Positions 1 through 64,000 of a DNA stretch of 64,000 bases are shown one piece after another; position 1 is the first letter of the stretch, and each line of letters starts with the position of its first letter. Source of the DNA: Bilabrum cf. latius. Its lineage: Eukaryota. Under the pieces are notes generated by a model, which had not been told where the DNA came from, did no database searches, and saw only the letters and a list, made by a program, of their open reading frames with translations. A program made the translations under genes and the position numbers. Where the stretch lies: NCBI GenBank assembly GCA_965178125.1, contig OZ237736.1, positions 620,001-684,000 on the forward strand, in the 5' to 3' direction.

Positions 1-820
1 GGAGGCAAGACGACGACTTGTTCTGTGAGAGCAGTGCTGAAAGCTCTGACAACCCGCCTCCATGAGTCTGGGATGGAGGCGCGCTCTCGTTTGCAGTGGC
101 CCCCGTTGCGACGGTTTGCGTTGACGAGCTACTGGAGCTTGAATGCTCGGTTGATTTGCGCGCTTCCCCATCAGCATGAGCTGGTAGACTCAGAGGACGT
201 GCTTCCCACTCTGCCACTGCCAGTTCACCAGAAGCGTAGTTCAGGCAGCAGAATCCAATCGTTGGCGACGCACCAAGGGTGCACTGCAACGATGCCACGC
301 TTGGGGCTTGTTGCACGATCCTGTCAAAGCACCCAGAGCACTCCGAGCGTCTCAGGCTTAGCCTACTAGAGGGTAGCAGTGGAGTACCCCCAAATAATCG
401 AAGCAATTCAAAAGAGCAGCTGGGGCTCGCGTCGACAGCAACCTGCCAGCGCTGCCCATCGCCCTTCGGTGTCCCGCGTCGCTCTGCAGGAGCCAACACC
501 TGTACCCGTGTGCCATGGTCAAGAACTAGAGCAGTGAGTACTTGTGCGACGGATTTCCGGGACAGTGAGCACTTCAATCCTGTTGTAAGGTTGCCAGTCA
601 CTGCAATTGCTGCGCCAAGATGCTGCTAGCAACATTTTACATCATGAGGGTGCACTGCAAAGAATGCTCCTTGTTCTTTTGCCAGAAACCTAATTGGCAC
701 CATGCAGTCTGCAAAGACTCGGGCACAGTAGGCCTAAGTAGCTGTACAGGCACCAAAACTAGCCTTCGCAAGAGGCTTTTCTAAAGCTATCGATGGAGCC
801 AGCCTTTGGATTGTCAGTGC
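1..820 (-). CDS. MutS-family mismatch repair protein, MSH2-like, 5' part only (runs off the window start; start codon uncertain, candidate ATG at 703)
   Basis: The minus frame is open from 820 to 1 apart from TAG at 734-736 and 626-628. It reads GAFFAVHPHDVKCC*QHLG...LSRKSVAQVLTALVLDHGTRVQV...WQVAVDASP..FELLRLF...TIGFCCLNYASGELAVAEW, which resembles MSH2 domains I-II. It is absent from the supplied ORF track. Confidence 0.6.
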
Positions 821-1368
821 TTAAATACAATAAAATATCCTGACGCACAATATTTCTGGCAACAGGCACTACCGAGTCTGCAAGAGGGAACTGAACGAAA
901 GGAATCAAATCAAGATGATCTTCATCTTCGGCTCCCGCCGGCGTCACGGTGCCGGTGGGTGCTCCAACTGGAGGCACATACCACCGCCTTTTACTTGCGA
1001 GCCCGCATCTATCCCCTTGTACAAACAAGCACCTATGTCATTGATTCTTAAGCATGAAAGCTCGGGCGGGCTAGCTTCATTCCTTTCCCGCGACTCGCGC
1101 TAGCCCTTTATGCATACGCCCGAGACGATGTAGGCGAGACCTCTTCGATGGCCTGCCCCGGTGATGGCTAGTCCTCATCCTTGTGTCCTCCTCCTCGTCC
1201 CGCACCCCAGCTGCCAGACCGGTCAAATGCAATAGTACGGACTACCCAGCACTGGCACTGGCTGACTGCCCGCTAACTTTTCAATGATGTTGTTTATGTG
1301 CCCATGGTACAGTCTAGTGTAGCAAGGCAACTAACTGCCCATGCCAAGCCAACTGCCGCGATCCATCT

Positions 1369-2421
1369 TCAAAGCCTGCTTGCTTTGACGACAAACAAAG
1401 GGTCACATCGAGTACTACTTGGGAGGCCGAAAAGCTCCGGGCCTACACTCGTCAGGTCCCAGGCCTCGATCGGGCCCCAATGCAGCACCTGCGTGGTGCT
1501 GTCACTGCCTCCACCCCCACCCTCTGCATCCGCAACCGATACTGAGCTACTCTCGATACCACCCGCATCATCCGTCTAAGAAGTATCACCAGAAAATCGG
1601 ATCACATCGGCAGCGTAACAAATCTTCTCGGCGAGTCCGAATTCCAGCCAAGGCCTCACCGATTGGGTGGGAAAGCAGCGACTCGATACTGCGGCCATTA
1701 GGACGCCGCCCGGGCGAAGAAGCAACCCTGCTTCCCGCACCACTTGGAGAGGATGTGTAAGGTATTCAATGCTTAAGCTGCACGTTACAACGTCCAATGT
1801 GCTATCGCTGATTCCGGTAGCTGCCCCGAGGGATGCAGGGATTTGCCCTGGCCCCTTCGATTCAAGGGGTACGTACCGGCCCCGTGCTCGTCCATTGTTG
1901 GAACTCGTGGCACTCGGTTCGTGTTCGCGCCATGAAGCCTTGTCGTTCAAATCTAGTACCGTCCATCTGCCGCAATGACCTGGCAAGTCATGCAGAAGCG
2001 GGTTCGCCTATAATTCCTTCGCATTCATCCCTACCCCCACGCAGAGGGATCTACAATGAGCCTGCTTAGCCGCAACAACACTAGGCCAATCCTCCGAGGT
2101 GCAGCCAAAATAGTGGCTCGGATAGTGTGAAGTCCAGCTAGAGCAAAGATCTAAAGCTCGCAGACCATCAGAAGCGCCCTCTTGCAACCTCAAAAACTCA
2201 TCATCATAGAACTATTTAAGACCTGCCTAGGACAGTTCATCGATGTGATGAACACCAATGCGAGGGGACGAATAGAACTCTGGATCTGGCAGCGCATCAG
2301 CCCTATGCAGTTCGCTGTATGCCCACGAGTCAACCGCCTGAATGTGCTCCTGCACTACCTATCTTAGGCAAACTCGGCTGGATCTTAGTATCATCTGTGC
2401 TTCATGTCGCGCACGATTCAT
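1369..2421 (-). CDS. SAM-dependent methyltransferase (Methyltransf_11-like, FY..PR.V.HID family)
   Basis: One frame from ATG 2421 to TGA 1369 with TAG at 2359, 2227, 2212, 2008 and 1576. Motifs: EFYSSPRIGVHHID, LDLCSSWTSHYP, GMNAKEL*ANPLL, DVVTCSLSIEYLTHP, LRPGG, SSRCFPT, C-terminal DPLFVVKA. Confidence 0.8.
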
Positions 2422-5396: not shown

Positions 5397-6363
5397 ATGG
5401 CAGCAGCGTCTCGGGCCGGGCTTAAGTTGGCAAAGCTGTTTGGGGTGGCTGGCAAGCGAGTGCTTGTCACCGGCGGGGGGCGTGGGATTGGCGAAATGAT
5501 TGCAACCACATTTGTTGAGAATGGCTGTGACGTCTACATTTCCTCAAGATCAGCTGATGCATTGGAAAAGAAGGCCGAAGAATTAAATTCGCTTGGATCG
5601 GGCAGTTGCACAGCGATCCCAGCGGATCTAAGCAAGGGTGAGGGCTGCTCGCACTGTGCGTGCCGGCAGAATAAAAAAGTACCGCGCGCTTACTCCATGC
5701 ATTCGCACTGTGTCCCGACACATGTTGGCTGCAATGATCGCAGAGTCTGGGTGCTTAGATCTTGCCAAGTAGCTGTCTGCGAAAACAGACAAGCTTGACG
5801 TGCTCATCAACAACGCCGGCACGAGCTGGGGCGAGCCCCTGGAGAAGTACCAGGAGAAGGGCTGGGACAGGTGCCTGGCACTCAATTTGAAGGGTGTGTT
5901 CACAACTACACGCGCGCTGCTGCCACTCCTCGACAAGGCGAGCACCGCGGAGGACCCTGCCCGGGTGATCAACATTGGCTCCGTGGCCGGCCTGCAGCCG
6001 CAGCCAGTCCCGACGTACGCCTACGACGCAAGCAAGGCAGCCGTGCACAGCCTCACGCGCAAGCTGGCGTCTGAATTTTGTGACCGCAGAGCGGACGGAG
6101 GCCACAGGATTACCGTGAATGCGATTGCCCCCGGGTACGTCCCCTCCTCGATGTCGCAGCAGCTGCTCACCTACGTCGGCAAGGAGGTGATCGAGCAGGG
6201 TATCCCTATGGGCAGGCTGGGTGCCCCGGAAGACATGGGGGGTGCGGCGGTGTACTTGGCTTCCAAGGCAGGCAGCTGGGTCACTGGACACATCCTGACT
6301 GTAGATGGCGGCGCCATCGGCGCTGTGCCAATCAGCATGGTCGGCGGGAGCGCAGCCCTGTAA
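5397..6363 (+). CDS. Short-chain dehydrogenase/reductase (classical SDR)
   Basis: TGGGRGIG, NNAG and YDASK motifs. Intron 5638-5743 (GT..AG). In-frame TAG at 5770 (LAK*LSAK). Ends with TAA 6361-6363. Confidence 0.93.
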
Positions 6364-7374: not shown

Positions 7375-10300
7375 TTGCACTTGTGTTGCACGAGCTACCG
7401 CAAGCCTTTTCTCCATTTCACAGGAGATTTTGAGTATACCGCAAGGCTGTCTCAAACCAAGTATGGCAGCACAGAATGTCTTTGGGCCGGCGGATACAAG
7501 GAGAATGTTTCAATTCGCGTGCACGCGTCGCCCCACAGGAGCCTCCAGCGAACATTTGGATACGCAAGTAGGAACCGCGCAAGAGACAAGTGGCACTGCA
7601 GTGCCTCGAGTTACGTAAATGGCATCGATAACTCCAGTTCTACCAAGCGGGAGCTCACAAGACAACGGTCGTTTCCGAATCGGGCGAGCGGTAAAGATTG
7701 CAAGACTACGTATCGCTGTGGTGCGTAGGTATCGCGGTGGAAGCACCAATAGGACATTTTCAGGCTAGCAGATGCAGGAAACATCGGAGCACATCCATCA
7801 TGGCGATTCTTGCATCGTTTTGCATGCGCGTTTGGCGAGGCGTCATACCTGGCACAGCTCGCCCTGCCTGCCGCACCGTCTGCTTCGGCTGGCACTGCGA
7901 GTGGAAACAGTCTCGAGGTGAGCAGCAGGTGGGGCTAGCCTGCGTCTGCGGCACAGCTGACGTACCGCAGCCCGCCTCGGAGCAAAGCAGGGCGACCCGG
8001 CCTGCGCGCGGACCCGTTCTCCGTGCAAGAGGATAGGCAGAATCTGCCCCCACCCGCACTAGTGGCATACACTGTGGCTCTGCTGGCAGCAGTGCTGACC
8101 CGGAATGATACTCCCCTGGTCGTTGTTCGAGGAGTGGTTGATGCGTGCTTCGGGCTAGCGCCATCTTGGCGAAGGAGGCATGCAGCTGCAGCTGCTGCCA
8201 GGCGATTCGCCCGCATGGAGGAGGAGCAGGTGCAGGAGGCAGCGGGGGAGGGGTTCGCAACGGTTGGAGGGTCGGCCTGGCAGTCTCAAACCGCAAATAT
8301 CTTCCTTGCGGACGATTCCATCGGAGATCTGGCCGCCGCTTGGGTGAGCGCTCCGGGCGCCGCGGTGCATGCACGAGAAGAATCAGGTGAATGGGACGTC
8401 AGTCGACTCTCGCCACGGCCTGTGTCTCCGCACCATGCTGCAAGGCCCATGCCCACAGCGATTCAGCGAGTGGCAGAAGCCAGGGAGCCTCCTAGCCCGC
8501 AGCTGGCCCCCTTCTTCCTCCAGCCCAACTCGGTGTTCAGGCTGCTGCGGTGGGCCATCGGGGCCCCTAGAGCCAGGTCTGTGCTGCAAACTTTAGGAGT
8601 GGACGCCCCATCTCCGGCACGGGTCGGCGATAGGATAGAAACACTGGGGCCTGCCGCCACGGCTGCCTGCGAAGGCGCCTGCGATGGTTATGCCGGGATC
8701 GGTTGCGGTTTGCAGCGCACCGATGGCAGCAGCAGTAGCGAGGACGTTGACGTGCGTCGAAGCCATCGCACTGCGGTGCTTTTATCGGCCGCGCACGCCG
8801 GGTTGCTTGCCCCACAGGATAGGCACGCGCTACGCCTGGTCGACCCATGGACGTCTTGGAATGCAGTCAAGCTCAGACGAGCTGCACAGGCTGCTGCATC
8901 GATGGCCAGCCCAAGCCCGAGCGAGCTGACCGAGCGCAGTGAACGAGAGAAAGTGTCCCCTCCGACAGGAAGCGGCCACAATAGCGCGCATATATGCCTG
9001 CCATCCGATACAACTGGCGTTCATGCAGGCTGCGAGGACAAAAGTGACGCCGAAAGCGCGTTCTTCCCGCGCATGCGACGCAAGCAGATGCAGGCACAGC
9101 TGGACCGCCTCCGCATGCAGCAGCTGGCCGAGGCTGACGAGGACCTGAACGAGCTCAGTGCAGGCAAAGGCTCTCCTGCAATCTCCGACAAGCGCATTGG
9201 TCCCGACAGCGTGCACACCATGCTGACATCGGGGCAGTGGAAAAGGTACGGAGGGATCAGGCTGCCGAGGTCAGAGCGACTCGGCAGCGGTCGCCGACTG
9301 CTCACCACCGATGAGGCCCAGGAGTACGTGCTGATCAGCCTGCTCAACAAGGCTAGTGGTTCGCGATACGGTGCACTGGCAGGCGACGATGAGGCGGGGC
9401 CGCAGGACATCGGCGGTGGGTCTGGCGTGCTTGGACTTCGGTACCGGCAGGTCGGCGTGAACGACATCGTGAGCAGCAGCGAGGACGAAGGCAGTGGCAG
9501 CGAGAGCGACGGGGGTTCTTCCGGGCTGCGGCGTAGAGGAAAGCGAGGGGTCGTGGACCAGGACGTGGCCGATGCGCTCCCTCCGGCGCAAGGTAGGCTT
9601 CTCTCACGGTACCGCCAAGGTTCCACGCACGACCCAGCTGATGTGGTCGCAGGATACAAGTCAGGACAAAGTAGCACTCGGCAAGCGTTACCAAGCCAAG
9701 CAGCAGGGATGAGCCGAGTGAGGAGCAACTCGGCAACAGAACGATTCGCCACAGGTGCAGCCGCGGGTGCAGGGGCAACACCTGCAGTCGATCGCTACGA
9801 GCTCCGACCGAGTCATGCCAAGACCTACGATTGCGAGCGTGCCAGTGAAAGCAATGAGAGCACCGTCTTGTATGAGCTTGTGCTGTCGATAATAAAGTTT
9901 GGGGGACCCTGGCTGCTGAGCTCGCAGGTGCTGACAGGAGCTGTGACTCTGCTACAGATGTCGGCCAAGGCTGCTGAGCGCACGTTTCTGCTGCAGCTGC
10001 TGCACAGCTTGTACAATCCCCGCCCGCGCGATCTGCGGGGCTGGTCAACCTGGAGGAAGCGGAGGCTGAGGGCGAAGAAGACCGAGTCGGTGGCGCCGGG
10101 CTACAGATCCACGGCGGCAGCATCACGTGTATCGGATTCACACCGCTCTTATAGGCATGAGCCTGTCACCTTCAACGGGAAGACAGCACCAACGTCACCA
10201 CGTGGATCACACGCGAGCAACACTCACTAGCGTACAGATGAGCAGCAGATGTAGCCGCCTGCTCTTGCGGCAGCAGCCACTCTGTCGCACGAGAGCTCGC

Positions 10301-12582
10301 ACATGCAGCGAGACGATAGCATCGACACACACGGTAGTGGATCTTAGAGGGAACGGAGAGGAGACACGATGACCGGTGCCCATAGCCCGAAACGAAACCG
10401 TAGCAAGCACGGGCTACTGTCGCCGGAGTCTTCGCGCGTTGATCGCCCGAGACGGTCTTCACTGCCAAGCGAAGGATATGCCGGGCTCACCAGACAGCCG
10501 TTTAGCAAATGGAGAAAGCACCGGCTCGCAAGGGGGACACAAGTAGCAGGCTCTACTGATTTGGATGGCCAAGATGGCAAATGGCTGAGATCGGACGAGC
10601 TACAGATGCCCCGGCCAACGCTTGCAGACCCGGAGTCTGGCAGCGGGTCGTCTGTCTCGAGTTAGGACGATGAATACGACGACTATGAGGATATCTGTGC
10701 CGATGGCGTTGCGGAACAACGGAACTTAGACATGTTTCTCGCGATGTGGCGCTCTCGCGTGGTGTGCGAGGTGGCAGCAGCGATCACCAAGCGTGTCAGG
10801 GTGACCTCGCTTGCGGTGCAGTACGCGTTGGCGAACGAATCGAAGCTGCCCGAGTCGCTGCTGAGAACAGGCCCGGACTCCATGATGTCTCTCGCTGACT
10901 CGGACAGCGATGAAGAAGACGAGGCAGTTGAAGTGAACGAATCAGGTGGTCTTGCGGTCTCGCATGAGCGCTCTGAATCGATTGCTGACATGCACGACTT
11001 GCCGCATCATCCGGCACACCGCGCAAGAAGAAAATGCGCATGTCGCCGCGGCTCAATCTCAATGGCGCTGGGGAGCGGGTTCTTGGATTCAGACACGGGG
11101 GTCGTGATCAAGTCAGCAAGCAACGTGCAGGTCGGTTCCATGCGGGAACTGCTGGCCTTCTGCGGGCAAGCGATCGCGAGCTATCGGCCGGGACTCTCAG
11201 AGACCGCTGGGCTGCCTAGGGAGCTGGGAAGCGGCGTATCACCCATCCCATTGCCTAGATCATTGGGAACCGGGGACAAGAACCAGCGACCATCGGCTGC
11301 TAGCAGTAGACTTGAGTGTAGCAGAGGTACGCCTCCAAGCCATGGGCACGATGGCAGTCCGGTCTCGCACGGTCATCTGCATGATCTGGACAAACCCGAG
11401 AGACGCATGGCAGAGCCGATGCGATATTGCTCCCGGTACTCAGTGTCAGGGCCAGGCAGGCTGGTACTGGCAATAGGGCAGTGCCTGACTCGTCTCGGTC
11501 CCCTGGTGTGCGGCGAGTATCAGCAGGTGCTGCGGTGCGCTAGCACGATGGCAGCTGCTGATGCAGGGGCTGCGAGGTACCTGGCCGGCACAGTGCTGCT
11601 CCATTGGCCCCGGAACGCATCCACGAGACAGATCCTGCTGCTTCGGTTCCTCGCCACCACGCTCAACTCGTGGGCCTTCAGCCACGAGGGGCAGTCCCAG
11701 GGCAGCATGGGCAAGAGGGGCGGGTCCAAGGACGCGAGGAGACACGCTCGCATGCTGGCAAGGGCAGGAGGAGCAGCTAGACGGGTCCTTGAAAAGGCAG
11801 GCGCAGGCAGTGTAGCCGGTGCCGGCCCGCTTTCACCGCGAGATGGCCGGGATGATGCGGATGGCCCGCCTTCATGCATGGACGAGCAGGAAGGGTCCTT
11901 GGTGCCTGAGGTGGGCTCGCTGAGAGAACGGCTGGTCCGCAGGCTGTGCGTGTGCATCCAGAGCCCGCACGCACAGCTAGCCACAGCTGCCGCTGCCCTG
12001 TGCCACCCACAGCCCCACACCGGAGAGCCCTCCCCGCTTGTGCCTCTCATCCTGGGCGACTCGACCTTCACGGCACTGGTGCTGTCAGCCTTCCAGGGGC
12101 CTGCACTGCAGGACCACTGGAACAGCACGGTGAAGCAGAATGCCAGAGTGGTGGCACAGGCCATCGCGGGTCGTGCCAAAGAGAGAGAGGTGGAGCGAGC
12201 ACGGGCCAAGGAGGCGAGCAGGAGAGCAAGTGCTTCACGGCGAGCACCAGAGCACCCCGAGAGTCACTATTCGCACGGGAGCGGTGAGTCGTCTGGAAAT
12301 GGATCTGTGAATGCTTCCTCTCCTGCCAAGGCCCGAGGCCCGAGGCAATTCGGGCGGGAGGCAGCATGCGTATCTGCTGCGCGAGCGAGTGCTCGGCACG
12401 CCCTCGCGTTCGCGGGAATTTCGGCTGGCGGACTGCAGGGTGGTCGAGATGCCGCCCAGGAATCTGCATCGACAGCTGACGAGTCAGCCCAAACCTGGAG
12501 ATTCGACTCTCGCGGTCCTTCTTCGCAGGTAAGGCATCGAGTGTCCTCGCCTGCCCTGTCGTCAATGTTTGGTTCAAGCTGA
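7375..12582 (+). CDS. Greatly expanded PP2A B56 (B')-like regulatory subunit; 5' exons unresolved and possibly extend to about 6900
   Basis: One frame of about 1,735 codons to TGA 12580, broken only by TAG (7726, 7750, 7936, 10228, 10252, 10345, 10663). B56-like motifs: AERTFLLQLLHSLY, LLHWPRNASTRQILLL, RRLCVCIQSPHAQLA, DHWNSTV. Confidence 0.7.
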
Positions 12583-12598
12583 GGCAAACCACACAGTA

Positions 12599-12964
12599 TT
12601 ATTGCTATGTATTGATTTCGCCGACAACTAGCTGCGCTAACTTTGTTCGTGCCCTCTGAGAGTGCCCGATTGATTCAAAATCGCTCGTTGCATCGGTTCC
12701 CAAGTAATCCTCGATCACCTCTCCCCCTGGATGCTTCCTGGCATACTCACCAATGTCGATAACCAATTTGTTTATTATAATAAGTTTACGGCCGCCACTT
12801 GCCACTTCTTCTGCAACTTCATCGCGCGTCATCTTCGGCAAGGAACGCGCAGGCTCCGAACCGCATTGCTCCATAGTAGGCACCTTTACGGAATCTTTTG
12901 ATGTTGAAACGACCGTGCAACTACCATCAGCTAGTGGTAGATCTTTCTTTTCGGCAGCAGCCAT
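12599..12964 (-). CDS. Soluble cytochrome b5-like heme-binding protein
   Basis: HPGG, GTDATSDFESIGHS motifs. The 3' end reads TAG CAA TAA, so the real stop is TAA at 12599-12601. Confidence 0.9.
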
Positions 12965-13071
12965 CCAAAGCTACTGTGCTTCTGGCAGCATTCGTGCAGT
13001 TGCAGTTCGCACGTTTCGTGAAGATTCGGCAAGTGCTAGATTGAAGCAGGCACGAACAAAAAATATTTCCG

Positions 13072-48141: not shown

Positions 48142-48255
48142 CATGCCTGTGGCGGAACGGAACGTTCCACACGAACCGAACCGAAACGTCCACCGCACAT
48201 GATGAATCGCAATCGCTTATCGGTGCAGATCTACGCTCTAAAGTACCTCACAGCA

Positions 48256-53100: not shown

Positions 53101-56100
53101 GCGAGGGACAGCAAAGAGCGAAGATATCGCTTAGGAGGAAAGGGCGGTCGCAGCTTCGTCGGTCGCAGTGATGGCGCTTATCCGCGCATTTGGGACATTT
53201 GCTGTCAGCCTCGCCGGTCAGCTTCAGGCCAAGTGTGCAGCTGCTGGCAACGAAGACGTAGATGTGCCTGCAGATGAGCTGCGCGTGATGGTCCGGACGG
53301 CTTCATCAATGGCGCAAGATCAGCTCTCTATGGCTCTGTGCCGAGTCTCGAGGTGGAGGCAGGCGGTGCTTGGCGTCGCAGCCCAGGCGTCGCGGTTGTC
53401 AGCAGAGACTGGAGTGCGATTGCTGCAGATGGTGGACAGCAACACTGGGTCTGCGTCGAGGGCGTAGCTCCTTGCTCCGTTTGCATGCCAGGGCGGCGTT
53501 CCAGAGGCCAACGAGATCGACCAGCTGTCCAAGAGTGCGCTCTCTGAGTTGGCCGGCAGGGTGGCCGCTGCCGTGACCCCGTCGATGCAGGCGCTCGAGG
53601 ACTCCGCCCGTGCTGCTGGCACTTCCCACGGCTCGATGGGCCGCGACGTTGTGAGCACTGTAAGGACAGGCCTGCGCGCTGCCAAGCTGCTCGCAGGCGA
53701 CGGCGTTGAGAAGAAACTCGGTCACATTGAGACGGTGGCTAGGCAGAACAACCCGAGGGCAGCAGTCGCTGTGGGTCCCTCGGCTGGAATCGGCAGTACC
53801 GCAGCCCTTGCCAAGGCAGCCGCGCTGGCCAGCTGCCCTCCTGACGTGGGAGGTGAGCTGTCACCGCTGGCCTCGTCTGCCGCACGGTCGGATCTGGACA
53901 AGGCAGTAGCTGCCAAGGTTGCGTTAGAGAACAGCGCGCACATGCAGGCAGCACACGTGTGCGCAGGCGTGATTGGTGGACTCGCTGATGACGAGGTGCA
54001 GGTGGCTGGTGCTCTCTCGGGTGACCTTGAGCTGCGCAGGCTGGACAGGACTGGCATGCTGCAGCGACTGCAGGCTGATGCTGCAGCTATTGAAGGACGC
54101 CTCAGCGAGGCCGAGCACAAGCTGCAGGCTGCCAGGACGAGCGGTCCACCACCCGGCCTGGAAAGCCCCGTGCCTGCTCTGCAGTCAGAATGCGAGAAGC
54201 TAGCGAGAGAGAGGCAGGGCCTCGCTGTCAAGATCAGGGCTCTGCAAGAACGGGCTGGTTCAGCACAGGAAGCGGTCCGCGTCGCGGCCCTTGGATCCCC
54301 TGTGCTCGCAGAGGCGGCTGAGCGATGGCGTGGGGCTGCCGCTGCCCTCGAGAGCGCATCGCCGGATGCTGCCCGGGACTTGCTGTTTCGCGTGCAGGGC
54401 GGCAGCGATGCTGCGGATTCGGCGGGTGCGGGTGCAACCGATGAGCAAGGTGGCACTGACAAGGCTCTCATCTAGAGCCGGGCATCTTCACCGCTTCGAC
54501 TTGGGGCAAGTGCTGCGCTGCAGCTGCTCGGTGCATTCGGCGATGCGGTCCAAGCTGGAGTCGCTGCTGACAGCGCGGTGCGCGCGAGCTCCATCCGCAA
54601 TTCCATCGCGCAGCTTGGCCAGTCGGTTCTTGCTGAGTGCAGGGCAATCATTGGTGGAGGTATTTCTAAGATTATCTCGGAGCTTCGTGAGGTGCTGGTC
54701 GAGGACTCGCAGGCAGCAGCAGCCTCGGGCATGTTCCCCGCAGTACCTCGGTCAAGCGAAGAGCTTGAGGCGCTGAGTATTAGCGGGACCTCCACTGGCG
54801 GTGTTGCTGATGCAGACGTGGCGGCATCCTTGCAGCAGGCTGCGCGCGGCTTGCACGCAAGCGTGCAGGGCGCGACAGTGTTCCCTCTCACAGAGCTTGT
54901 TGGCCACGTTGCTTCTGGTATCAGGACGGATGTAGCTCCCATCATCGGGTCGTGCATGCAGGCGCATGTTGCATGCGCACTTGCCGTGATTGGGGCAGTG
55001 CGCAAGCAAGAAATGATGGCTGCTAGCGAGTGCGTCGCACCGCTGGTGCGCCTTCGCCGGGCCATTCAAGAGCAGGTCACGGCCCAGGCACGACAGGTCG
55101 CAGGGTGGGCGGTGGCGTACGGCTGCTTGACGGTGCTGCGCAGGCGGCATTGGCGACTTTACAGGCAGGCCTGGCAAGGCGTGAACCCCGGCATCCCTGC
55201 GAACCCGAACGCAGTGCAGTGGGGCGCGGGTGCGGCTGAAGGGATCATCGGCTCGGCTGTCGCTGTGGTGGACGATGCTGTCATTGCATCGAGGCTTCGA
55301 AGCAGCCTAACTATCGAGGCTCTGCCCGCTGGGAAGTGGGCCGTCCCTCGGCTGCTCGACCCTGCAACGCAGGTTGAGCGGGCCAGCGACCGAGCAAGAG
55401 TAGGTCGCGAGCTGGCCGATGCGCGAGCCAGGGCCATCGTAGCCGAGTAGGAAGCGACATCATTGCGAGCAGACCTTGGTATGGTGCTCGACGAGGTGCG
55501 CGCGTTTGCAGCCAAGGCTAAAGAATCCAGGGCCGAACAGGCAAGGTAGGCCGCTGCCGCCATGTAGGGAGGCATGGCGCGCAAGGTGGAGGCCCTGCGG
55601 TCCTCTATGGCCACCCACGGTGCCAAGGCGGCAGGTGCGGCTGCCGAGCTGATTGGCCAGCTGGGCGGGCTCGAGGGGCAGATCGGCGAGTTCTAGTACA
55701 TTGGCGCGACTTTGCTCGATGGATGGAGTCGCAGAGACACGGCCTCTGACGTATCAAGGAGCGAGGTAGGCCAGCTTGTGCATGCTGCCTTTCAGGAAGC
55801 GCTGCAAGACTCCGAGGCTACGCCGTAGGTGCTGCAGGCGATAGAACGCGCCGCCGTGGCTGCCTGCCAGCGCGTGGATCCAGCTGGGGAGGCACCTTTG
55901 GCGGTATTGGTTGGGCTTCACCTGCGGGCATGCCTGGAAGCACTTGTTGATGTCGCAATCGTCTCGCCCTTGCAGGCGGCGGGCCAATAGCTGGAGACTG
56001 ACGGGCGCAATGTTCAGACCGAGATTGACCAAGGTGACGGGTAGGACGGTGCGGATTTGTCAGACCGTGTGGCGCAACTGCAGGCGACTTTGCAAGCTTC

Positions 56101-57472
56101 TAGAGCGCACCTTATCGCCGCAGCTCGCTCTCCTGATGCTGTGTTAGCAGCAGGTGCGCGAACCTCCCTGCAGATCGCCTCGTAGACTATAGCCGGTGCT
56201 CTGGGGAAGCTGCTGGATCGGGCCAAGGGGCAAGTGGGGCGGGCCAGCGATGCTGCAAAGCAGGCCGCAGGTGCCACAAAGTCCCGGTTTGACCACCTTA
56301 CCTCGCTGGCGCAGCGGCACTAGCGGCAGGCCCAGGAAGAGAGGAGCCTCAGGGCCAAAGCCGATTCGTCGATCAAGACCGAGTCGGACAATCAGCAGAG
56401 ACTGAGTGAGGAGCTGGAGGAACAGCGCGCAAGGGCCAATCTTGCGCGGGAAGAGCTAGAGCGCACGCGAGCCGAGCTCGAGGCGAGCCGCCGGAGGCTG
56501 GAGGAGACGGGTGCCGCACTGCGCAACGCCAACGATCGGGGATCCAGCCTGCAGACGCAGCTGGACCAAAAAGAAGCCTTGCTGGAGGCAGTTGGCAGCC
56601 AGTTAGTTGACAAGCGAGCAGGCAAATCGCAGCTGCACTACCCTGGACCAGCAGATGTTCAGGCGAGTCATTCTGGGATGGCAGCCGTCGGTTCCGACGC
56701 TCCTGCCCAGTCCAGGCGCGCACAGTCAGATCCTCACGGCGCGGGGCCATCCTCGGCATCGGATGCCCTTGCATCTAAGCGGGAAACGAGTGGTGACACG
56801 ACCGGAAGCGCGCCTGCCAAGCATTCGTCCGGTGCTGGTGATGATAGCGTGCATGCCTCGGGAGGGCCTACCGATGTCTCTGTTCCTGGTATAGGTCTGC
56901 CTTCCGTAGCTGGTGGCGGCTCCGTACCGGCGGGTTTGCCAGAGCTGGACCAACAAGCTGTGGCGGCTGCCGGCGGAATGGCCGGCAGCTTGCCCACTGT
57001 GGCTCCTACCGCAGGCCCGTGGCAGCAGCAGGGCCCTGCGCCGGGCTTCCCGCCAGGCAGCATGGGCATGCATTCCGGCGGCCATGGACGGTACACTGCT
57101 GCAAGTGGTGGTCCGCCGCCCGGCCTCGGCATGCAGCAAGGAGGGTACCCTCCCCAGATGCAGATGTACCCTCCCGCGGCTGGTGGCCAGCAGGGATGGG
57201 GCCCGCCACCACAGAGAGGTGGGTGGGGCCCGCCGCCTATGGCACAGGGGCCATACCATGGCGGGCCGTAGATGGGTGGTGGTCCGCAGCCCGGCGGGCC
57301 CGGCATGGGCCAGCACTACGGGATGCATGGCCAGATGGGTGCCCCTGTGGGGATGCCTCCGCAGCAGTTCAGCGGCGGGCTGCCCATGCAGTAGCAGCAG
57401 CAGCAGCATTACCATGCGCACGATCCGTCGATGTCGCAGTTTGGCGGTCACTCTGGTGGCGGTGGGTGGTGA
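50162..57472 (+). CDS. Large Ala-rich helical/coiled-coil protein (2,436 aa) with a Gly/Pro/Gln/Met-rich C-terminal tail; function unknown
   Basis: Seven supplied ORFs share one frame and all end in TAG; reading through gives TGA at 57470. Coiled-coil near 56330-56600. TAG lies inside a CAG run at 57392. Confidence 0.75.
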
Positions 57473-57559: not shown

Positions 57560-60500
57560 TTAGCATAAAAGTATCTATTTTAAGAATGTCTGTACTTGCA
57601 AAGCAGAAGGAGAACATTTAGATCCTGGATTGTGGCCTCACGTCAAGCATTCCCACTTGATCCTCAAGGGCAAAGGTGACTAAGCCTGGATACATTTTCA
57701 CCTCCATCGCTTTTGCAACCCTCGAACTCCTAGACTTTCAAGCAAAGGCATGAGCTCACCCATAGCCAGCTTGCTGCGCGAACTGTCCCGGTCCCTGAGC
57801 TAGTCTAGCCACAGCACCGTGGCGTGCGTAAGCTTGGGGGCGTACATGCGTGCCCGGACGAACGGGTTCAGCATGACAGATAGTTGGGCATGACTTCTGA
57901 CCAGGGGCACCCTAGACGCTAGCTCCAGGTCAAGCATGGACATAGCTTCAGCGGTCCGATACCGGCTCAACTGCGTGACCCTTTTGAGCCTGGAGGCGTC
58001 AGAGCGAAGCTCCTTGGGACGGGACACCCTCGGCAGCAGGCCGGTGTCCTTCGCCTGGTCCAAATCCTCTCCTCGGATGGACGACTTAGGCCGTGGAATC
58101 CCAGCGGTATAGTTGGCAAACGCGTGCCCCAGCTCAACGAGCCCCAGGCCGTCAAGCACGGGCAAAACATCGACCATCTAGTCAGCAACGCAAGCCATCA
58201 GGAGCTGTGCGGAGCGAGATTCGATGCGAGCACCACTGAGCATCACAGCAACTGCCAGCGCGTCGCCCTCGTCCATCCCTTCGATGGAAGGAGCAGCATC
58301 TGATGGCTTCGATTGCAGCGCCAGCTCACGTACTTGCCGGCAGTATTCCTGGTCGGGCTCCGCGGCCCCCAGGTTCTCGTAAGCTTGCACCAGGCCCGAA
58401 GCGTACAGTCCAGCCAGCTCTCCCGCTTGTGTATCTTCACCATCTATTCCTGTGGGCACCCGCGATGCCAGCGCGTCAGCTAGGGCAGAAATGGCACCCC
58501 TGAATGCAAGCGCAGCCTGTGGACCCGGAGAGCTCTCCAAGCCGGGCAGCAGCATGTGGCGCATGCGTCGCACAGCAGGTGGAATCGGCTCTCCTTGCAT
58601 CGCATCAGCTTCCTATTCCAGCTGGAATCCAGCTGTTTTCGGCTACGAAGGCACATACTCAGCGTACTTGTTTCGGGCCCATGCTTTGTCAGAGGCGTGG
58701 TAGGCTGCCATGGCCCGAGACAACACGAAGAGCGTCCCGGTGGGGAGCAGGTGCATGGGCGTCGTGCGGAGTCGCTTTCGGTCCTTTCGCTTTGTTTCCC
58801 TCGGGTCGGCTCGCCGCTCAACAACTAAGTCCTTGTGAAGCACATTGTCGAAATCTGCGACAGCCTAGACGGGACCAGCCAGCCTGCGAAGCAGCTCTGC
58901 AAGTAGCACGCAGATGTCATCAGCACGCGGCCTTGCATCTTCGCCAAGCGAATCGCTGCCCGTCTCAAGCATGACAAACAGTCCCAGTGCAGCGTCTGCC
59001 AGCTGCCTGGATGTCATTGGGCTGCGTGCATCGGATAGCATGGCTTCGTATTTTTCGAGGACTGCCTCGGCTGACACGGCAGGCGTGTCTGCTCCGCCGT
59101 CGCTTCCATCGCCCTGATCGGTACCATCGACACTAACACTCCCCAGTGCAGTTGAAGTGGTGTGTACCATTCGAGCCCCAGTGGCTGGGAAGCATGAGGC
59201 AGCGGCAGTAGCTGCCTGGGGCACGATGAGGCGCTACCCCTCCGCCACAGTAGGCACTCGCCCCCCCTGCAGCCTGTACCCGATGTACTCGCCGGGCTCC
59301 TCCGACGATAAGCCACTGTGGTAGGCAGCAAACCTCTGACTAGATGCAGCCGCGATGCAGCCTAGGGCAGCCGAAGAGGCGCACGCCAGCTTCGGGAAGA
59401 AGGTGGCGGGACGGAGTCCGTCGGGGCCAAAACCGGGCTGCGAAAGTACTTCGGATGATCCCATCGAGGCCCCATCGGCCGCAACAAAATGCTCGCTGCC
59501 GGTTTCCTAAAATCCTGCAACCGGCAGCATGCTCGCAGCACGGCTGGCCAGGACATGCAGCCGGCGGGTGGAGCGCTCAGCATCGGATGAGCTGATCCAA
59601 AGGTCGGACAGAGCCTCCTCAAACGACTCAGAGAACATACTCGTCCACTCTAGACGCTCCTATCGCCTGTTCATGAACCGAATCGACGGCTTGGCTAAGT
59701 CCTCCACAACCATCCAGTCGACGGAGGAGGACGAGGAGGATGAGGAGGAGTGGTCAGCATGACACAGGCCGCGGAGATGAAGCAAATGGGCACAGGTACG
59801 TGCGACAGCCGGCGTCACCTTGTGTGAATCAGGCTTTGAGTTCGACCCTGGCTTTAGTTGATGCACCGCAGCGCCCGCTAATGAGCGGGTGAGCTCTCCA
59901 GCAAGGTGGTCACGGTTTTGGGACGACAATTTCGATTGCCTTTCCACTACAGCCAAGGCAGTCACGGATCTCGCTGCTGCTGAAAGGTCCACCCATGGCG
60001 ACCCCTTGGAATGACTTGCTGCATCCACGCTCAGCTGTGCCCACATAGCAAGGGTTTCGGAGACGGCTTCGTGCGGTGCCACTGAGGTACCGCCTTGGGC
60101 GCTGCGGACTTCCCGTGGGGCAGAACTAGCCAGTGCCAGTGACAAGAGTCTCGCCATCTCCGAGCCAGCCGCCAAGTCAGCGGAGGTCAAGCTATCACAG
60201 CCAACGTGCGAGCAGAGGGTGCGCAAGGCAGCCATGCCTATCTGCAGGTTGGGGTATCGGTGCTCCCCCCGACCAAGCGCAGTCTGATTCCACAGCGAGC
60301 AAAGCAACGGTGCCGGATCCCGCCGACGAGCCACCCTCCGAAGGAAGGTCCTTGCCTCCTCCACATCAGTGGACACGAGGCTAAGTGCGCAAGACTAGAA
60401 CTCGCCATGCATTCGCTTGGCAGCTGATGAGGCCTTCTCAGGTGACACACTGGCATCTGGATTACCATTGACAGACCTATTGCATGCTTTCCAATATGTT

Positions 60501-62164
60501 TCCCAGTGCTGGCAATCCTGTGACCACGTTGCAAGCGCAGCTGACAGGGGCAGCGTGCCAGGTAATGAGCCACTGTTTCCCTATAAAAGGCTATCCGCAT
60601 CCCTAGCGGCATGCAACGAGGCATTGCTGACGGAGAGCAGCTTGAGTGCGAGTTGCCACACGCCCATTTTCGCATCGAATGCAGCCGAGCATAGCGCCTG
60701 AATGTTGCGGTGCATCGATTCAGGCCCATTCGATGCGTGCATACCAGGGCACAGCGAAAGCGGCACCCCATCGCTGCCAGGGAACACACCAAGCGTTTCC
60801 AGGTCGAGCGTTATTAAGGGATCAGCGGGACCCGTCTCGAGGTCGGTGCTGCCTTCAGCTCGTCCGTCCATCACGTGCACTTCGGAAGGGGTAGTGTGTG
60901 GACCGCCGAGCTGGTCTGGGCATGCAACAGCCTCCTACACCCTGCTGCGATGGCCAAGGGCGGGCCAACACCCGGACAAGAAAGAGGCCGAGCTCAGGTC
61001 CTCGATCCAATCCGAAGCATCGCGCGGTGACAGGTGACTGCAATCTGCAGCAAGCGCACTGCCCATCGCGTCTAAACCTACCTTTGTTCGCTCCACAGAC
61101 TCTACAAGCGAGCGCAATGCAGTTGCTGCCACTGGGCGACTCAAGGCCTCTGGTCCAAGCTCAAGGCATCCCGAGAGCGCGACGGCGACCGACGTACACA
61201 TCTCAGCCCCGCTCGCCAGCATGGCAGGGGAGCAGTCCACCCCAGAGTCGGCCGCCCGCTGCATGTGGTCTGACACCATTTCAACGCACAACGTGACATG
61301 TTCTAGAGAGGACTAGAGCGCGGCATCACCCGGCTCTCGTGAGGTAGAGCCATCCGATTTCGCGGCGGACAATCCAGCCGCTGCCCGAAGCAGGTGCGCT
61401 GCCCCCCTGCGGGCCAATCGCAGCGAGTCCTCCTGGTTCAATTCGTGCCCGTTTCTCTTGATTGCATCCATGCAAACTTGCTCTAAAGGCGAGCCGCCTT
61501 GCACATTAAGCACGTGTAGTGACAGCAGCACGTCCTTGGCCATCTCTGCTTGCTCGGTCGTGTCAATGGGCACAGCGCCGCGGCTTGTGGTAGCGTGCTT
61601 GGCCTGCCATGGACCACTCACGTCCCAGCTGTCGTCCAGGGCATCCATTAGAGGTGGTTCAACGATGCGCACAATGAGCTCGATCGAATCTCTGGCTTCG
61701 GATACAAGCTTGTCTACCTGCGACTTGGTGCCGGCTGTGAGTGCCGCAGCTCGCAATTGCGTCGCTACAATTGCACCCGCCCGACGAATTGCTTCAGTGG
61801 CCTCCTTCCCACGAATAGCAGCAGGATCTGCTAGTAGAACATCTACTATTGCCTGAAGGTCCTCTGCAGCTTGCACGCCAGCATGCAGTGTTTGCTGCGG
61901 GTGCTTGTTGCGATCAAGGCCAACTGCACTCATCATCGGTTCAAAATCAGCGGCCAAAAGAGAGCCTTGCTGGCTCATATCTGCTAAGGATCTAGATTCG
62001 TGCGATGATTGCATCCATGATGGTCTGTTGCCACTACTTGAAAGTGACCGACGATGGCACACAGCTGTAACTCGCCCTGATGCGAGCACAATAGTATCCT
62101 AGGCCAACAATCGTCGACTCAATACTCCTGATAGACGATTAAGCTGGATGTAACACCTCTACAT
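57560..62164 (-). CDS. Large alpha-helical hypothetical protein with a mitochondrial presequence-like N-terminus; 3' exons uncertain
   Basis: Nine supplied ORFs (57800-62089) share one frame and end in TAG. N-terminus M*RCYIQLNRLSGVLSRRLLA*...RRSLSSS. Probable short introns lie near 57590-57760. Confidence 0.6.
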
Positions 62165-62310
62165 CACCCTGGCAGCTGTGCAAGAAGGAAAATATATTCC
62201 GGTGCAACTGGATAATGTAAGGTGGGTTTTAAAGACGCACAAATCCGTATTATGTTGCAGAACACTGGCTGCTGTTCGCGCCCCATTTACCCGACATAAG
62301 CCCATAAATC

Positions 62311-64000
62311 ATGCGCAGTGTGGTTCGAAGGAGTATCAAAACGCTTTCAAGGTCACTTAGTGCGGGTGTTCCTGCTGCAGTTCCCAGTAGGACGTGTGCT
62401 GGACTCGCATCGGCAGTATCCCCGGCTGCTGACGGCAGCCATGTGCACGTGATGAAGTTTTCTGGGTCTCAGCTTGACGGTGCTATTGCTCTAAAGTAGA
62501 TTGCAGATTCAATCAGGGAGGCAGAGGCTGGAGATGATAAGTAAGAAGTGCTTGGTTCGTGTATCGTTCCTGGCCATCCAGGACGGATATTTAATGGAAG
62601 CCCTGCTGTGGTTTTTACAATCTTTTGCCTCTACATTTTTGGCGAAAATAAATAAGCGGGACTTTAATTTCCTCATGCAGTAATCAAGCATGCATAGATT
62701 TCCCGTTTCGCAGGTTGGTGGTAGTTCTATCCGCTCTGGCAGGCGTTACGAACTCCCTGTACAAGATTTTGCAAGATTTTGACGCCGGTGCAAGCGTGGA
62801 ATCGCTGAAAGATGATATTAGTGCGCTATTGTCTCTGCATGCCGGGACAGCAACGGATCTTTTGGGCCCTCAAGCTTCCCGACAGGTCATCGAGAACATC
62901 GAACTGGCCCTTGAGCATCACCTGCTGGGCAGATTGCGCTACGCCCGGGAGCGCGAGGGACCGTTGGTACCGTTAGACCGAGACATTATTTGCTCATTAG
63001 GAGAAAGATTCTCTGCCTACATTTTGACGGAATATTTGAGTGAGCACGGCCTGCAGGACCGTGCTGCGCTGGTGCCAGCCGAGCAAGTGATCGTGACCGA
63101 TGGGAAGCCGGGGGCTAGCATGCCCCTCATGGCGGAGACATAGAGCAAGGCAAGGGCGGTTCTAGCACCCATGCTGGCCCAGGGCACGGTTCCGATCGTC
63201 CCTGGATTCTACGGCGGCTCCATTTAGGACGGGGCAGCGACAACGCTTGGTCGCAAGGGCGGTGATCTGTCTGCTGCCATGCTGGGGTACGCTCTCGATG
63301 CGGAGGGGGTAGACTTGTATCACCTGGAGCAGGATCCGTCCAAGGCAACTTTTACGCAGGCGAACCACAGCTTCAGTGACCAGAGGGAGCACGGAGCAAG
63401 TGCTCCGGGGCGAGCAGGCGACCCTGCTCGCTCTGGAGCAGGTGCCTCAGAATGGCGCGCAGACCACAACGGCAGCCACTCAGACGTGGTCGAAAACCTC
63501 ACGTACGAAGCCGCCGAGGAGCTGTGTGCCCTGGGCCAGGACGCCGTGCACAGGGGCTCGGTGGGTCCTCTGCGTCGCAAGGGAATCCCCTTCACGGTGG
63601 CCTCGAGCCTGGGCGCAGAGGACGAAGACACCACCACCATCCAGTCGGAAGTGGATTTGTACGGGAACGAGGGAGCTGTGGGAGGGGAGGCCCCCGCCCA
63701 TGCCGCTGGTGGGGCGGGCCAGGGGTGGGCCGTGGAGGACCGTGTCTCCGCGGTGCATTCCATTGCAGTGCCTGAGTTTGAGCGGAGGTCGAATCGCCCC
63801 CTGGCCATGGACTGGGAGCAGCTGCCCCCCGAGCTGGAGAGGGACGCCTCCACGATCGTCCCCCTCGTGGGGTCATCCCTGATGCGGGACCAGAAGAGGC
63901 TCCGGAAGCTCACTTCGAGGGCGCTTCAGGAGGCCGGGGTGAAGTTTGCTGTTCCCTAGCGCGTGACCGGCTCCGAGCACAGCTTCTCCGTGGTGGTTCC
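62311..64000 (+). CDS. Aspartokinase-like protein (amino acid kinase domain) with a mitochondrial presequence, truncated at the window end
   Basis: VMKFSGS, VVVLSALAGVTNSL, SLGERFSA, VPIVPGFYG, TTLGRKGGDLSA and LTYEAAEELC. Intron 62541-62713. TAG at 62497, 63141, 63225 and 63957. Confidence 0.8.

What the first reader, a model, noticed from the sequence alone, without database searches (positions are those of the whole stretch)
1..64000. Nuclear genetic code with UAG reassigned to an amino acid while UAA and UGA remain stops
Seen: in-frame TAG interrupts essential conserved genes across the window, including FEN1 codon 11 (14995), ArgD (35326, 36214), ALG10 (33090, 33246), SDR (5770), Dabb (27375), aspartokinase (62497, 63141) and the DUSP active-site approach (29263). 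Chains of 7-11 supplied ORFs share one frame and are split only by TAG. I found no in-frame TAA or TGA inside a conserved domain. Predicted true ends are TGA (15 genes) or TAA (SDR 6361, cyt b5 12599, VSP 18396, ALG10 34698). Established: UAA and UAG usually change meaning together in nuclear codes. Uncoupled UAG reassignment is rare; examples include the fornicate Iotanema, a rhizarian and some ciliates, and NCBI table 15 has this form. Inference: this organism looks like a stramenopile flagellate, a group where I do not know of this code, so it may be an independent origin needing a tRNA with a CUA anticodon and a UAG-blind eRF1.
Basis: partly seen in the sequence, partly recalled or inferred. 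Interest (0 to 1): 0.97.

Follow-up and report, generated by a model that had tools for sequence, protein, structure and literature searches.

The report
Protist nuclear code reading TAG as glutamine
This stretch of an unidentified GC-rich protist genome uses the stop codon TAG as an ordinary glutamine codon while TAA and TGA still end genes, a rare kind of genetic-code change that at least one related organism in environmental samples shares.

Summary
Reading TAG as sense raises the longest open frames from 763 codons to 2493, 2447, 1771, 1738 and 1536. Also reading TAA as sense adds 0-19 codons to these. Fourteen long frames (16,060 codons) hold 111 in-frame TAG.

TAG means glutamine, on three lines of evidence:
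- In close relatives (80-96% identical), 8 of 11 TAG-aligned residues are Gln, 2 Glu and 1 Lys. On 9 of these pairs, Gln is about 10^8.7 times likelier than any other residue.
- In deep homologue columns, the mean Gln fraction is 0.23 at TAG sites and 0.24 at ordinary Gln codons. It is 0.06 or less for the other seven residues tested.
- The partner codon is CAG in 4 of 4 ArgD Gln pairs.

A metagenome relative has its own in-frame TAGs at other positions, so the code is shared by a lineage.

The code has the known NCBI table 15 form (Iotanema, Protocruzia, some phyllopharyngean ciliates). The organism is unplaced. One gene tree points to stramenopiles. The tRNA, eRF1 and RNA evidence could not be examined.

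The parts
35134..36465 (+). ArgD (acetylornithine aminotransferase). In-frame TAG at 35326, 35506 and 36214. Ends at TGA.
   Evidence: Pfam Aminotran_3 4e-102. The TAG65 column is Gln in 99 of 120 homologues. In the TAG361 column Gln is the commonest residue, 26 of 120. Against relative L001 the partners are Q, E and Q, and L001 has its own TAGs opposite window CAG at codons 118 and 137.
13072..15027 (-). FEN1, three exons with two GT-AG introns. TAG at 14995-14997 (codon 11). Ends at TGA.
   Evidence: Homologues bear PF00867/PF00752. The codon-11 column in 89 homologues is A 41, G 25, S 16, with no Gln.
47875..49941 (+). Pantetheinase-like CN-hydrolase. TAG at 48607, 48778, 49072 and 49606 among 8 in the frame. 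The first ~90 codons lie in a duplicated segment and may not be coding.
   Evidence: Pfam CN_hydrolase 5e-19. PDB pantetheinase 2e-25. Columns: residue 302 has Gln on top (38 of 147); residue 578 has Gln 7 of 14, and the close relative P0126 has Q; residue 245 has Y 44 and V 37 of 144 with no Gln; residue 400 has L 23 of 74. Relatives P0127 and P0157 end just before residues 245 and 400.
50162..57472 (+). 2436-codon frame with 19 in-frame TAG and no Pfam family. Ends at TGA.
   Evidence: Relatives P0122 and P0125 give TAG438 = Q, TAG991 = E and TAG1102 = Q. The window's own public protein fragments P0121, P0123 and P0124 end at TAG sites.
36618..44063 (-). 2481-codon ankyrin + RBR/IBR E3-ligase-like gene with 14 in-frame TAG. 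Ends at TGA.
   Evidence: Pfam Ank_2 and IBR. Syntenic with L001/L002. The TAG at 37305-37307 is opposite K in the relative. A relative TAG is opposite a window Q.
57698..62305 (-). 1535-codon frame with 14 in-frame TAG and no Pfam family. Ends at TGA.
18396..23684 (-). Ends at TAA.
   Evidence: Pfam DSP-PTPase families. Stop codon seen.
29624..32590 (-). Kinase-like gene with 8 in-frame TAG. Ends at TGA.
   Evidence: Pkinase E = 7e-6, below Pfam's cut-off. Stop codon seen.
27670..29691 (-). Dual-specificity phosphatase-like gene with 6 in-frame TAG, including 29263-29265 just before the HC..G..R active-site stretch.
   Evidence: DSPc E = 3e-7, below Pfam's cut-off.
32865..34700 (+). ALG10 glucosyltransferase. 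TAG at 33090 and 33246. Ends TAA followed directly by TGA.
   Evidence: DIE2_ALG10 1e-50. Frame. End.
5722..6363 (+). Short-chain dehydrogenase. TAG at 5770. Ends at TAA.
   Evidence: adh_short_C2 5.5e-39, matched to profile position 234 of 236. End.
12599..12991 (-). Cytochrome b5-domain gene whose frame ends TAG CAA TAA.
   Evidence: Cyt-b5 4e-14, with the profile ending 4 residues before the end. Codons.
16946..17788 (-). Leucine-rich-repeat gene whose frame ends TAG TGA.
   Evidence: LRR_4 5e-24. Codons.
44634..47591 (+). 985-codon frame with 9 in-frame TAG. Ends TAG ACA GGA TGA.
26952..27467 (+). Dabb-domain gene. TAG at 27375 in the domain. Two further TAGs lie in what looks like an intron. 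Ends at TGA.
   Evidence: Dabb 1.5e-9. Positions.
62308..63998 (+). Aspartokinase-like gene in at least two exons, running off the window. TAG at 62497, 63141 and two more.
   Evidence: AA_kinase 6e-16. Frames.
8215..12582 (+). 1455-codon frame with a weak B56-like match and 4 in-frame TAG. Ends at TGA.

Best explanation
The window is nuclear DNA of an intron-poor, GC-rich (about 59%) microbial eukaryote. Its ribosomes read UAG as glutamine throughout its genes, and UAA and UGA remain the terminators. This is the form written as NCBI table 15.

Shown here: TAG lies in frame in essentially every long gene, sits where homologues and close relatives have Gln, interchanges with CAG between relatives like a synonymous codon, and is shared by at least one related organism.

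Inferred from what is established for other UAG-only codes, and not tested here: a tRNA-Gln with anticodon CUA decodes UAG. Its C34 pairs with G only, which would explain why UAA is untouched. The release factor eRF1 would have lost or weakened UAG recognition.
For: 1. TAG is sense.
- Open-frame lengths rise from a maximum of 763 codons to 2493, 2447, 1771, 1738 and 1536 when TAG alone is read through.
- Fourteen frames (16,060 codons) hold 111 in-frame TAG.
- Pfam domains run across TAGs.

2. TAG is Gln.
- Eleven TAG-versus-residue pairs with relatives of 80-96% identity give Q 8, E 2, K 1.
- On the 9 pairs recovered by blastp, an empirical substitution table from the same alignments gives log10 likelihood -3.9 for Q. 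The next best are -12.6 for H and -12.75 for E.
- In 6 deep-homologue columns with at least 30 sequences, the mean Gln fraction at TAG sites is 0.231. It is 0.240 at the window's 39 ordinary Gln sites, 0.062 for E, 0.049 for K, 0.038 for A and 0.001 for Y.
- The ArgD TAG65 column is Gln in 99 of 120 homologues and in all 4 PDB alignments shown.
- The partner codon is CAG in 4 of 4 ArgD Gln pairs.

3. TAA and TGA are stops.
- Seventeen genes end in TGA (13) or TAA (4).
- Also reading TAA as sense extends the five longest frames by only 0-19 codons.
- If TAA were used relative to TAG as CAA is relative to CAG (184:494), about 41 in-frame TAA would be expected. These frames have none.

4. It is not an artefact.
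- Metagenome loci L001 and L002 (80% identical ArgD, same neighbouring gene) have in-frame TAGs at other positions.
- Protein fragments of closer relatives stop exactly before window TAG245 and TAG400.
Against: - No tRNA gene lies in the window or in L001/L002. No genome is held. So the decoding tRNA and eRF1 are unseen.
- No RNA or peptide evidence was obtained.
- Several TAG columns hold almost no Gln among homologues: FEN1 codon 11 (A/G/S, 0 Gln of 89), CN-hydrolase 245 (Y/V/I, 0 of 144) and 400 (L on top, about 3% Gln), and ArgD 125 (an insertion; Gln below 2%). Ordinary Gln codons show this less often: 3 of 39 columns have Gln below 2%, against 2 of 6 for TAG.
- Three of 11 close-relative partners are E or K.
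- Three of 17 genes carry TAG 1-3 codons before the final stop, against about 0.35 expected (Poisson p = 0.006, uncorrected). Some residual or context-dependent termination at UAG is therefore not excluded.
- All of this rests on 64 kb.
Confidence: 0.9

Rival explanations
1. Ambiguous code. UAG is mostly glutamine but still terminates translation in some contexts, for example close to the 3' end of the mRNA, as stop codons do in Condylostoma, karyorelict ciliates and Blastocrithidia.
For: Three of 17 genes end TAG TGA, TAG CAA TAA or TAG ACA GGA TGA. About 0.35 such cases are expected (p = 0.006 uncorrected). In the cytochrome b5 gene the Pfam domain ends 4 residues before the frame's end, so either codon could be the real terminator.
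Against: The sample is only 3 cases, and the test was chosen after seeing the data. No TAG lies 4-10 codons from a stop. There are 111 in-frame TAGs with conserved sequence downstream. No gene was found whose homology stops at a TAG followed by a long unrelated extension. The base after TAG does not differ significantly from the general first-position make-up (chi-square p = 0.07). The same pattern is expected if these are former TAG terminators that survived because a back-up stop lay close behind.
Confidence: 0.1
2. Both UAG and UAA mean glutamine (the NCBI table 6 form, as reported for Amoeboaphelidium), and TAA is merely rare because the genome is GC-rich.
For: Two of the four TAA-ended frames would grow by only 0 and 2 codons if TAA were read through, because the ends are TAA TGA in ALG10 and TAA GCC GGC TGA in SDR. 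Those two ends alone cannot tell the codes apart.
Against: Frames of 1536-2493 codons run without a single TAA, whereas frames 2 and 3 of the same DNA hold 54 and 49. CAA is not rare (184 against 494 CAG), so GC bias alone would leave about 41 TAA. Also reading TAA as sense joins no long frames.
Confidence: 0.03
3. The TAGs are not translated as written. They would be corrected in the RNA by U-to-C editing to CAG, removed as tiny in-frame introns, or be errors or pseudogene lesions.
For: No RNA data could be laid on the window, so editing is not directly excluded. The CAG partner codons would also fit U-to-C editing.
Against: - TAG codons align without gaps inside conserved blocks, so they are not introns.
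- Only TAG interrupts frames, never TAA, TGA or frameshifts, over 16,060 codons, so these are not pseudogenes or random errors.
- Relatives carry TAGs at other and at the same sites.
- Nuclear U-to-C editing at about 7 sites per 1000 codons is, to my knowledge, unknown in any eukaryote (recalled, not searched).
Confidence: 0.03

Closest known systems
UAG-only to Gln nuclear codes (NCBI table 15 form): the fornicate Iotanema spirale, the ciliate Protocruzia tuzeti, and two phyllopharyngean ciliate lineages
   Same: UAG encodes glutamine while UAA stays a stop. In-frame UAG is spread through ordinary genes. This comes from passages of the Discussion of PMC11687900 and the abstract of PMC5304391.
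   Different: This genome is GC-rich (0.56-0.64 by 4-kb windows). It has many genes on one 64-kb stretch, so it is not made of ciliate gene-sized chromosomes. Its ArgD branches with oomycetes and Cafeteria, not with ciliates or metamonads. TGA is the main terminator (13 of 17).
Amoeboaphelidium protococcarum (aphelid): TAG and TAA both read as Gln
   Same: A stop-to-glutamine change outside the ciliates. The best named FEN1 matches here are early-diverging fungi, Paraphysoderma and Catenaria at 57%.
   Different: That code is reported to change both UAR codons (passages in PMC6299283, and PMC5304391). Here TAA is not used in frame. The 120 best ArgD homologues listed include no fungus among the named hits.
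Uncultured rhizarian exLh (UAG = Leu) and Scotinosphaera (UAG = Ser)
   Same: The meaning of UAG is uncoupled from UAA in a non-ciliate nuclear genome (passage in PMC11687900).
   Different: The amino acid differs. Mean Gln fraction at the window's own Leu and Ser codon sites is 0.016 and 0.035, against 0.231 at TAG sites, and no close-relative partner is L or S.
Ambiguous stop/sense codes (Condylostoma, karyorelicts, Blastocrithidia UAA)
   Same: A possible link only: TAG is enriched just before the final stop in 3 of 17 genes.
   Different: Those codes have no, or only one, dedicated stop and depend on position in the mRNA (abstracts of PMC4967479 and 10.1101/2022.04.12.488043). Here TAA and TGA never occur in frame within long genes.

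Membership tests
UAG-to-Gln-only nuclear genetic code (NCBI table 15 form) | In-frame UAG within conserved protein-coding genes | tested here: met
   111 TAG in 16,060 codons of 14 frames. TAGs lie inside Aminotran_3, CN_hydrolase, adh_short, DIE2_ALG10 and Dabb matches.
UAG-to-Gln-only nuclear genetic code (NCBI table 15 form) | UAG corresponds to glutamine in homologues | tested here: met
   Close relatives give Q 8, E 2, K 1 of 11 pairs. The likelihood on 9 pairs favours Q by about 10^8.7. The deep-column Gln fraction is 0.231 at TAG sites and 0.240 at Gln codons. Three or four individual columns hold almost no Gln.
UAG-to-Gln-only nuclear genetic code (NCBI table 15 form) | UAA and UGA remain terminators | tested here: met
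   No TAA or TGA occurs in frames of up to 2493 codons. TAA read-through adds 0-19 codons. The 17 gene ends are 13 TGA and 4 TAA. This holds within 64 kb only.
UAG-to-Gln-only nuclear genetic code (NCBI table 15 form) | UAG is not used as a terminator | tested here: inconclusive
   No gene's homology ends at a TAG with a long extension. But 3 of 17 frames have TAG 1-3 codons before the final stop.
UAG-to-Gln-only nuclear genetic code (NCBI table 15 form) | A cognate tRNA-Gln with anticodon CUA | not testable with these tools
   No tRNA was found in the window or in L001/L002. No genome is held.
UAG-to-Gln-only nuclear genetic code (NCBI table 15 form) | eRF1 N-domain changed so that UAG is not recognised | not testable with these tools
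   No eRF1 family matched any of the 24 frames scanned against Pfam. No genome is held.
UAG-to-Gln-only nuclear genetic code (NCBI table 15 form) | UAG retained in mRNA and translated (RNA-seq, peptides) | not testable with these tools
No run on record as RNA was listed.
UAR-to-Gln code (NCBI table 6 form) | In-frame UAA used as a Gln codon | tested here: not met
   Zero TAA where about 41 would be expected from the CAA:CAG ratio. No frames merge when TAA is read through.
   ArgD: the window plus L001 sit on a long branch inside a 38-row clade with oomycetes and Cafeteria (SH-aLRT 99, quick search, 60 rows). The best named FEN1 hits are chytrids, blastoclads and Acanthamoeba at 55-57%. The best CN-hydrolase hit is Trimastix marina at 34%. 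No rRNA lies in the window.

The most novel reading that the evidence does not exclude
This is an independent, lineage-wide UAG-to-glutamine reassignment in a group where none is on record. The group is possibly the stramenopiles, judging by ArgD. At least two environmental relatives share the change.

It arose in a GC-rich genome, where TAG terminators should have been common rather than vanishing. The genes ending TAG-TGA or TAG-CAA-TAA would then be fossils of former TAG stops that survived because a back-up stop lay directly behind. This is the trace an ambiguous-intermediate route predicts.

Such organisms would also be the kind of host needed by the giant viruses that earlier notes of this scan found reading TAG as glutamine.
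Probability: 0.3. Interest if true: 0.85.

Novelty: new member of a known kind. Interest (0 to 1): 0.72.

Why it matters
- **Rarity.** Nuclear codes in which UAG and UAA have different meanings are few. The papers read here list Iotanema, a rhizarian, Scotinosphaera and some ciliates. Each new independent case tests why the two codons usually change together.
- **GC-rich setting.** A case in a GC-rich, TGA-terminating genome argues against simple disappearance of the codon before its capture.
- **Annotation.** Public protein collections already hold this organism's proteins cut at every TAG. The window's own fragments P0121, P0123 and P0124 end at TAG sites. Gene calls for this lineage made under the standard code are therefore wrong and need table 15.
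- **Viruses.** It adds a cellular candidate type to set beside giant viruses that read TAG as Gln.

Tried and rejected
- **Whole genome.** None is held for this window. So there could be no assembly-wide code inference and no tRNA, eRF1 or 18S search.
- **Sequencing runs.** Twelve runs were listed and 10 hold part of the stretch, from 6 studies. No RNA holder is listed. Three runs are only guessed to be RNA.
- **Laying reads.** Nothing can be said on RNA retention of TAG, splicing or 3' ends.
- **RNA genes.** The Rfam scan of the window gave 0 matches. ARAGORN gave 0 tRNAs in the window and in L001/L002.
- **Viral contigs.** An ArgD search found no relative.
- **This scan's own notes.** There was nothing for this genome or for look-alike stretches.
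- **Naming the unnamed ArgD, FEN1 and CN-hydrolase homologues by cluster look-up.** This added only Cafeteria, a Symbiodinium-labelled record, Trimastix, Cymbomonas and two animals, and gave no placement.
- **Literature.** Seven searches found no paper reporting a nuclear UAG reassignment in a stramenopile. The library lacks most subscription journals, and supplements were closed.
- **Tyrosine.** This was considered because human pantetheinase has Y at CN-hydrolase residue 245. It was rejected because the Gln fraction at the window's own Tyr sites is 0.001 and no close-relative partner is Y.
- **The 40-residue insertion in ArgD as a retained intron.** This was rejected because the relative keeps it in frame as coding sequence with its own TAG.


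Full report
**What the window is.** The window is 64 kb at GC 0.56-0.64. It has no tRNA and no Rfam match. It carries ordinary eukaryotic genes, identified:
- FEN1, acetylornithine aminotransferase (ArgD), ALG10 and an aspartokinase-like gene;
- a short-chain dehydrogenase, a cytochrome b5-domain protein and a Dabb protein;
- a leucine-rich-repeat protein and a pantetheinase-like CN-hydrolase;
- phosphatase-, kinase- and RBR-ligase-like proteins;
- several very long frames without any Pfam family.

FEN1 has two short GT-AG introns. The Dabb and aspartokinase genes also look split. So this is intron-poor nuclear DNA of a microbial eukaryote. It is not organellar or viral DNA. No whole genome is held for it.

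**The observation.**
- Under the standard code the longest stop-to-stop frame is 763 codons.
- With TAG read as sense, the five longest are 2493, 2447, 1771, 1738 and 1536 codons.
- With TAA read as sense instead, nothing changes.
- With TGA read as sense, many middling frames appear but none exceeds 763 codons.

In 14 long frames totalling 16,060 codons, frame 1 holds 111 TAG. Frames 2 and 3 hold 54 and 49 TAA, and 245 and 337 TGA. At that off-frame stop rate, a 2493-codon frame free of TAA and TGA has chance about e^-53. These frames run stop to stop, so they may include a few leader codons. One TAG of the CN-hydrolase frame lies in a duplicated segment.

**Which amino acid.** Three independent lines give glutamine.

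1. *Close relatives.*
   - Two metagenome loci, L001 and L002, encode an ArgD 80% identical to the window's. They have the same neighbouring RBR gene on the opposite strand.
   - Window TAGs at ArgD codons 65 and 361 face CAG (Gln) in L001. The TAG at codon 125 faces GAA (Glu).
   - L001 has its own in-frame TAGs at codons 118 and 137, and these face CAG in the window.
   - In the RBR gene, a relative TAG faces a window Gln, and a window TAG faces Lys.
   - Fragments from still closer relatives (91-94% identical) give Q, E and Q for three TAGs of the 2436-codon frame. They give Q for CN-hydrolase codon 578.
   - The total is Q 8, E 2, K 1 of 11 pairs.
   - I scored the 9 pairs that blastp recovered with a substitution table taken from the same alignments. 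Gln scores log10 L = -3.9. The next best are His at -12.6 and Glu at -12.75.

2. *Deep homologues.*
   - The ArgD codon-65 column is Gln in 99 of 120 homologues. It is Gln in all four PDB alignments printed.
   - Gln is also the commonest residue at ArgD 361 (26 of 120), CN-hydrolase 302 (38 of 147) and CN-hydrolase 578 (7 of 14).
   - As a control I took every column with at least 30 homologues in the ArgD, CN-hydrolase and FEN1 sets. The mean Gln fraction is 0.231 at the 6 TAG sites and 0.240 at the window's 39 CAA/CAG sites. It is 0.062 at Glu, 0.049 at Lys, 0.038 at Ala, 0.035 at Ser, 0.016 at Leu and 0.001 at Tyr sites.

3. *Codon turnover.* TAG and CAG swap between window and relative at 4 of 4 Gln pairs in ArgD. 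This is what a synonymous pair one transition apart would do.

**Results that fit less well.**
- FEN1 codon 11 sits in a column of A 41, G 25 and S 16 among 89 homologues, with no Gln.
- CN-hydrolase 245 sits in a Y/V/I column, with 0 Gln of 144. Residue 400 sits in a column where Leu is commonest.
- Two of the 6 TAG columns have Gln below 2%, against 3 of 39 for ordinary Gln codons.
- With so few columns this does not overturn Gln, but it is noted.

**TAA and TGA.** Seventeen genes end in TGA (13) or TAA (4). Where a domain reaches the C-terminus, the stop follows closely. This holds for SDR (profile position 234 of 236) and Dabb (95 of 96), and for the ArgD end shared with homologues. If TAA were a Gln codon used relative to TAG as CAA is to CAG (184:494), about 41 in-frame TAA would be expected in these frames. 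There are none. Reading TAA through lengthens the five longest frames by 0-19 codons only. The code is therefore the UAG-only form and not the UAR form.

**Not an artefact.**
- Only TAG interrupts frames.
- TAG codons align without gaps inside conserved blocks.
- A relative has its own in-frame TAGs.
- Relatives' protein fragments P0127 and P0157 stop immediately before window TAG245 and TAG400. This suggests that those two TAGs are conserved.
- The window's own proteins sit in public collections cut at TAGs (P0121, P0123, P0124). This shows that standard-code gene calling has already mis-annotated this organism.

**An open point.** Three of the 17 genes carry TAG within the last three sense codons: cytochrome b5 (TAG CAA TAA), the LRR gene (TAG TGA) and the 985-codon frame (TAG ACA GGA TGA). 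About 0.35 such cases are expected (Poisson p = 0.006, post hoc). Either these are former TAG terminators that were tolerated because a back-up stop followed directly, or UAG keeps some terminating activity near mRNA ends. The window cannot decide between the two.

**Mechanism.**
- Shown: UAG is a sense codon equivalent to Gln, and UAA and UGA terminate.
- Inferred from established knowledge of codon-anticodon pairing and of other UAG-only codes: a tRNA-Gln with anticodon CUA, and an eRF1 that no longer recognises UAG.
- Neither gene is in the window. RNA evidence could not be obtained.

**Who it is.** The organism is unresolved.
- In a quick maximum-likelihood tree of 60 ArgD sequences, the window and L001 form a long branch inside a 38-row clade with oomycetes and Cafeteria (SH-aLRT 99). 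The tree program itself warns of long-branch joining.
- The best named FEN1 matches are chytrid and blastoclad fungi and Acanthamoeba, at 55-57%.
- The best CN-hydrolase match is Trimastix marina at 34%.
- A stramenopile is the best guess from one gene, and no more than that.

**Comparison with what is known.**
- From the Discussion passages of PMC11687900: UAG-only to Gln is reported for Iotanema spirale, Protocruzia tuzeti and two phyllopharyngean ciliate lineages. UAG to Leu is reported for a rhizarian and some ciliates, and UAG to Ser for Scotinosphaera.
- Amoeboaphelidium is reported to read both TAG and TAA as Gln (passages in PMC6299283 and PMC5304391).
- Seven full-text searches found no report of such a code in stramenopiles. 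The library is incomplete and supplements were closed. The runs that hold this sequence date from 2025, so a description may exist that I cannot see.
- Earlier notes of this scan describe giant viruses reading TAG as Gln with unknown hosts. I did not test any link.

**Verdict.** This is a real, clean UAG-to-glutamine nuclear code shared by a small lineage. It is a new member of a known kind, and the organism's identity and the decoding machinery still have to be found.

Noticed in passing
12599-12607 (-), 16946-16951 (-), 47580-47591 (+): Three of 17 genes have TAG one to three codons before the final TAA or TGA (TAG CAA TAA; TAG TGA; TAG ACA GGA TGA). About 0.35 are expected. They may be relics of former TAG terminators with close back-up stops, or a sign of residual termination at UAG.
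   Followed up: partly
47142-47572 and 47756-48140: A segmental duplication of about 430 bp, seen as three collinear blocks at 76-96% identity. The 3' end of the 985-codon gene is repeated in front of, and into, the CN-hydrolase frame. The first ~90 codons of that frame are therefore probably not its real start. A relative's fragment starts near the signal-peptide-like stretch instead.
   Followed up: partly
35506-35630 (+): ArgD carries a cysteine-rich insertion of about 40 residues that the four PDB homologues shown lack and that many of the 120 sequence homologues also lack. The 80%-identical relative keeps it in frame, so it is a lineage-specific coding insertion and not an intron.
   Followed up: partly
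50162-57472 (+) and public protein ids P0121, P0123, P0124: Public protein collections hold this organism's own proteins as fragments that end at TAG codons. Gene calling under the standard or bacterial code has split them.
   Followed up: yes
about 3600-3775 (+): Seven tandem copies of an 8-residue unit (SRGTVLPI) lie in a 452-codon frame without any Pfam family.
   Followed up: no
25025-26650 (-) overlapping 25044-26735 (+): Two long frames on opposite strands overlap almost fully. The minus frame has a long run of KSPA/AKK-type repeats and no Pfam hit. Which strand is coding was not settled.
   Followed up: no
L001 1-2579, L002 1-2021: The relative keeps the same gene order and orientation (ArgD, then the RBR-like gene on the other strand). 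Its ArgD ends at TAA where the window's ends at TGA.
   Followed up: partly
other genomes (earlier notes e1-5306704, e1-5483507, e1-5483497): Earlier notes of this scan describe giant viruses that read TAG as glutamine and have no known host. A cellular lineage with the same code is a possible host type. No link was tested.
   Followed up: no
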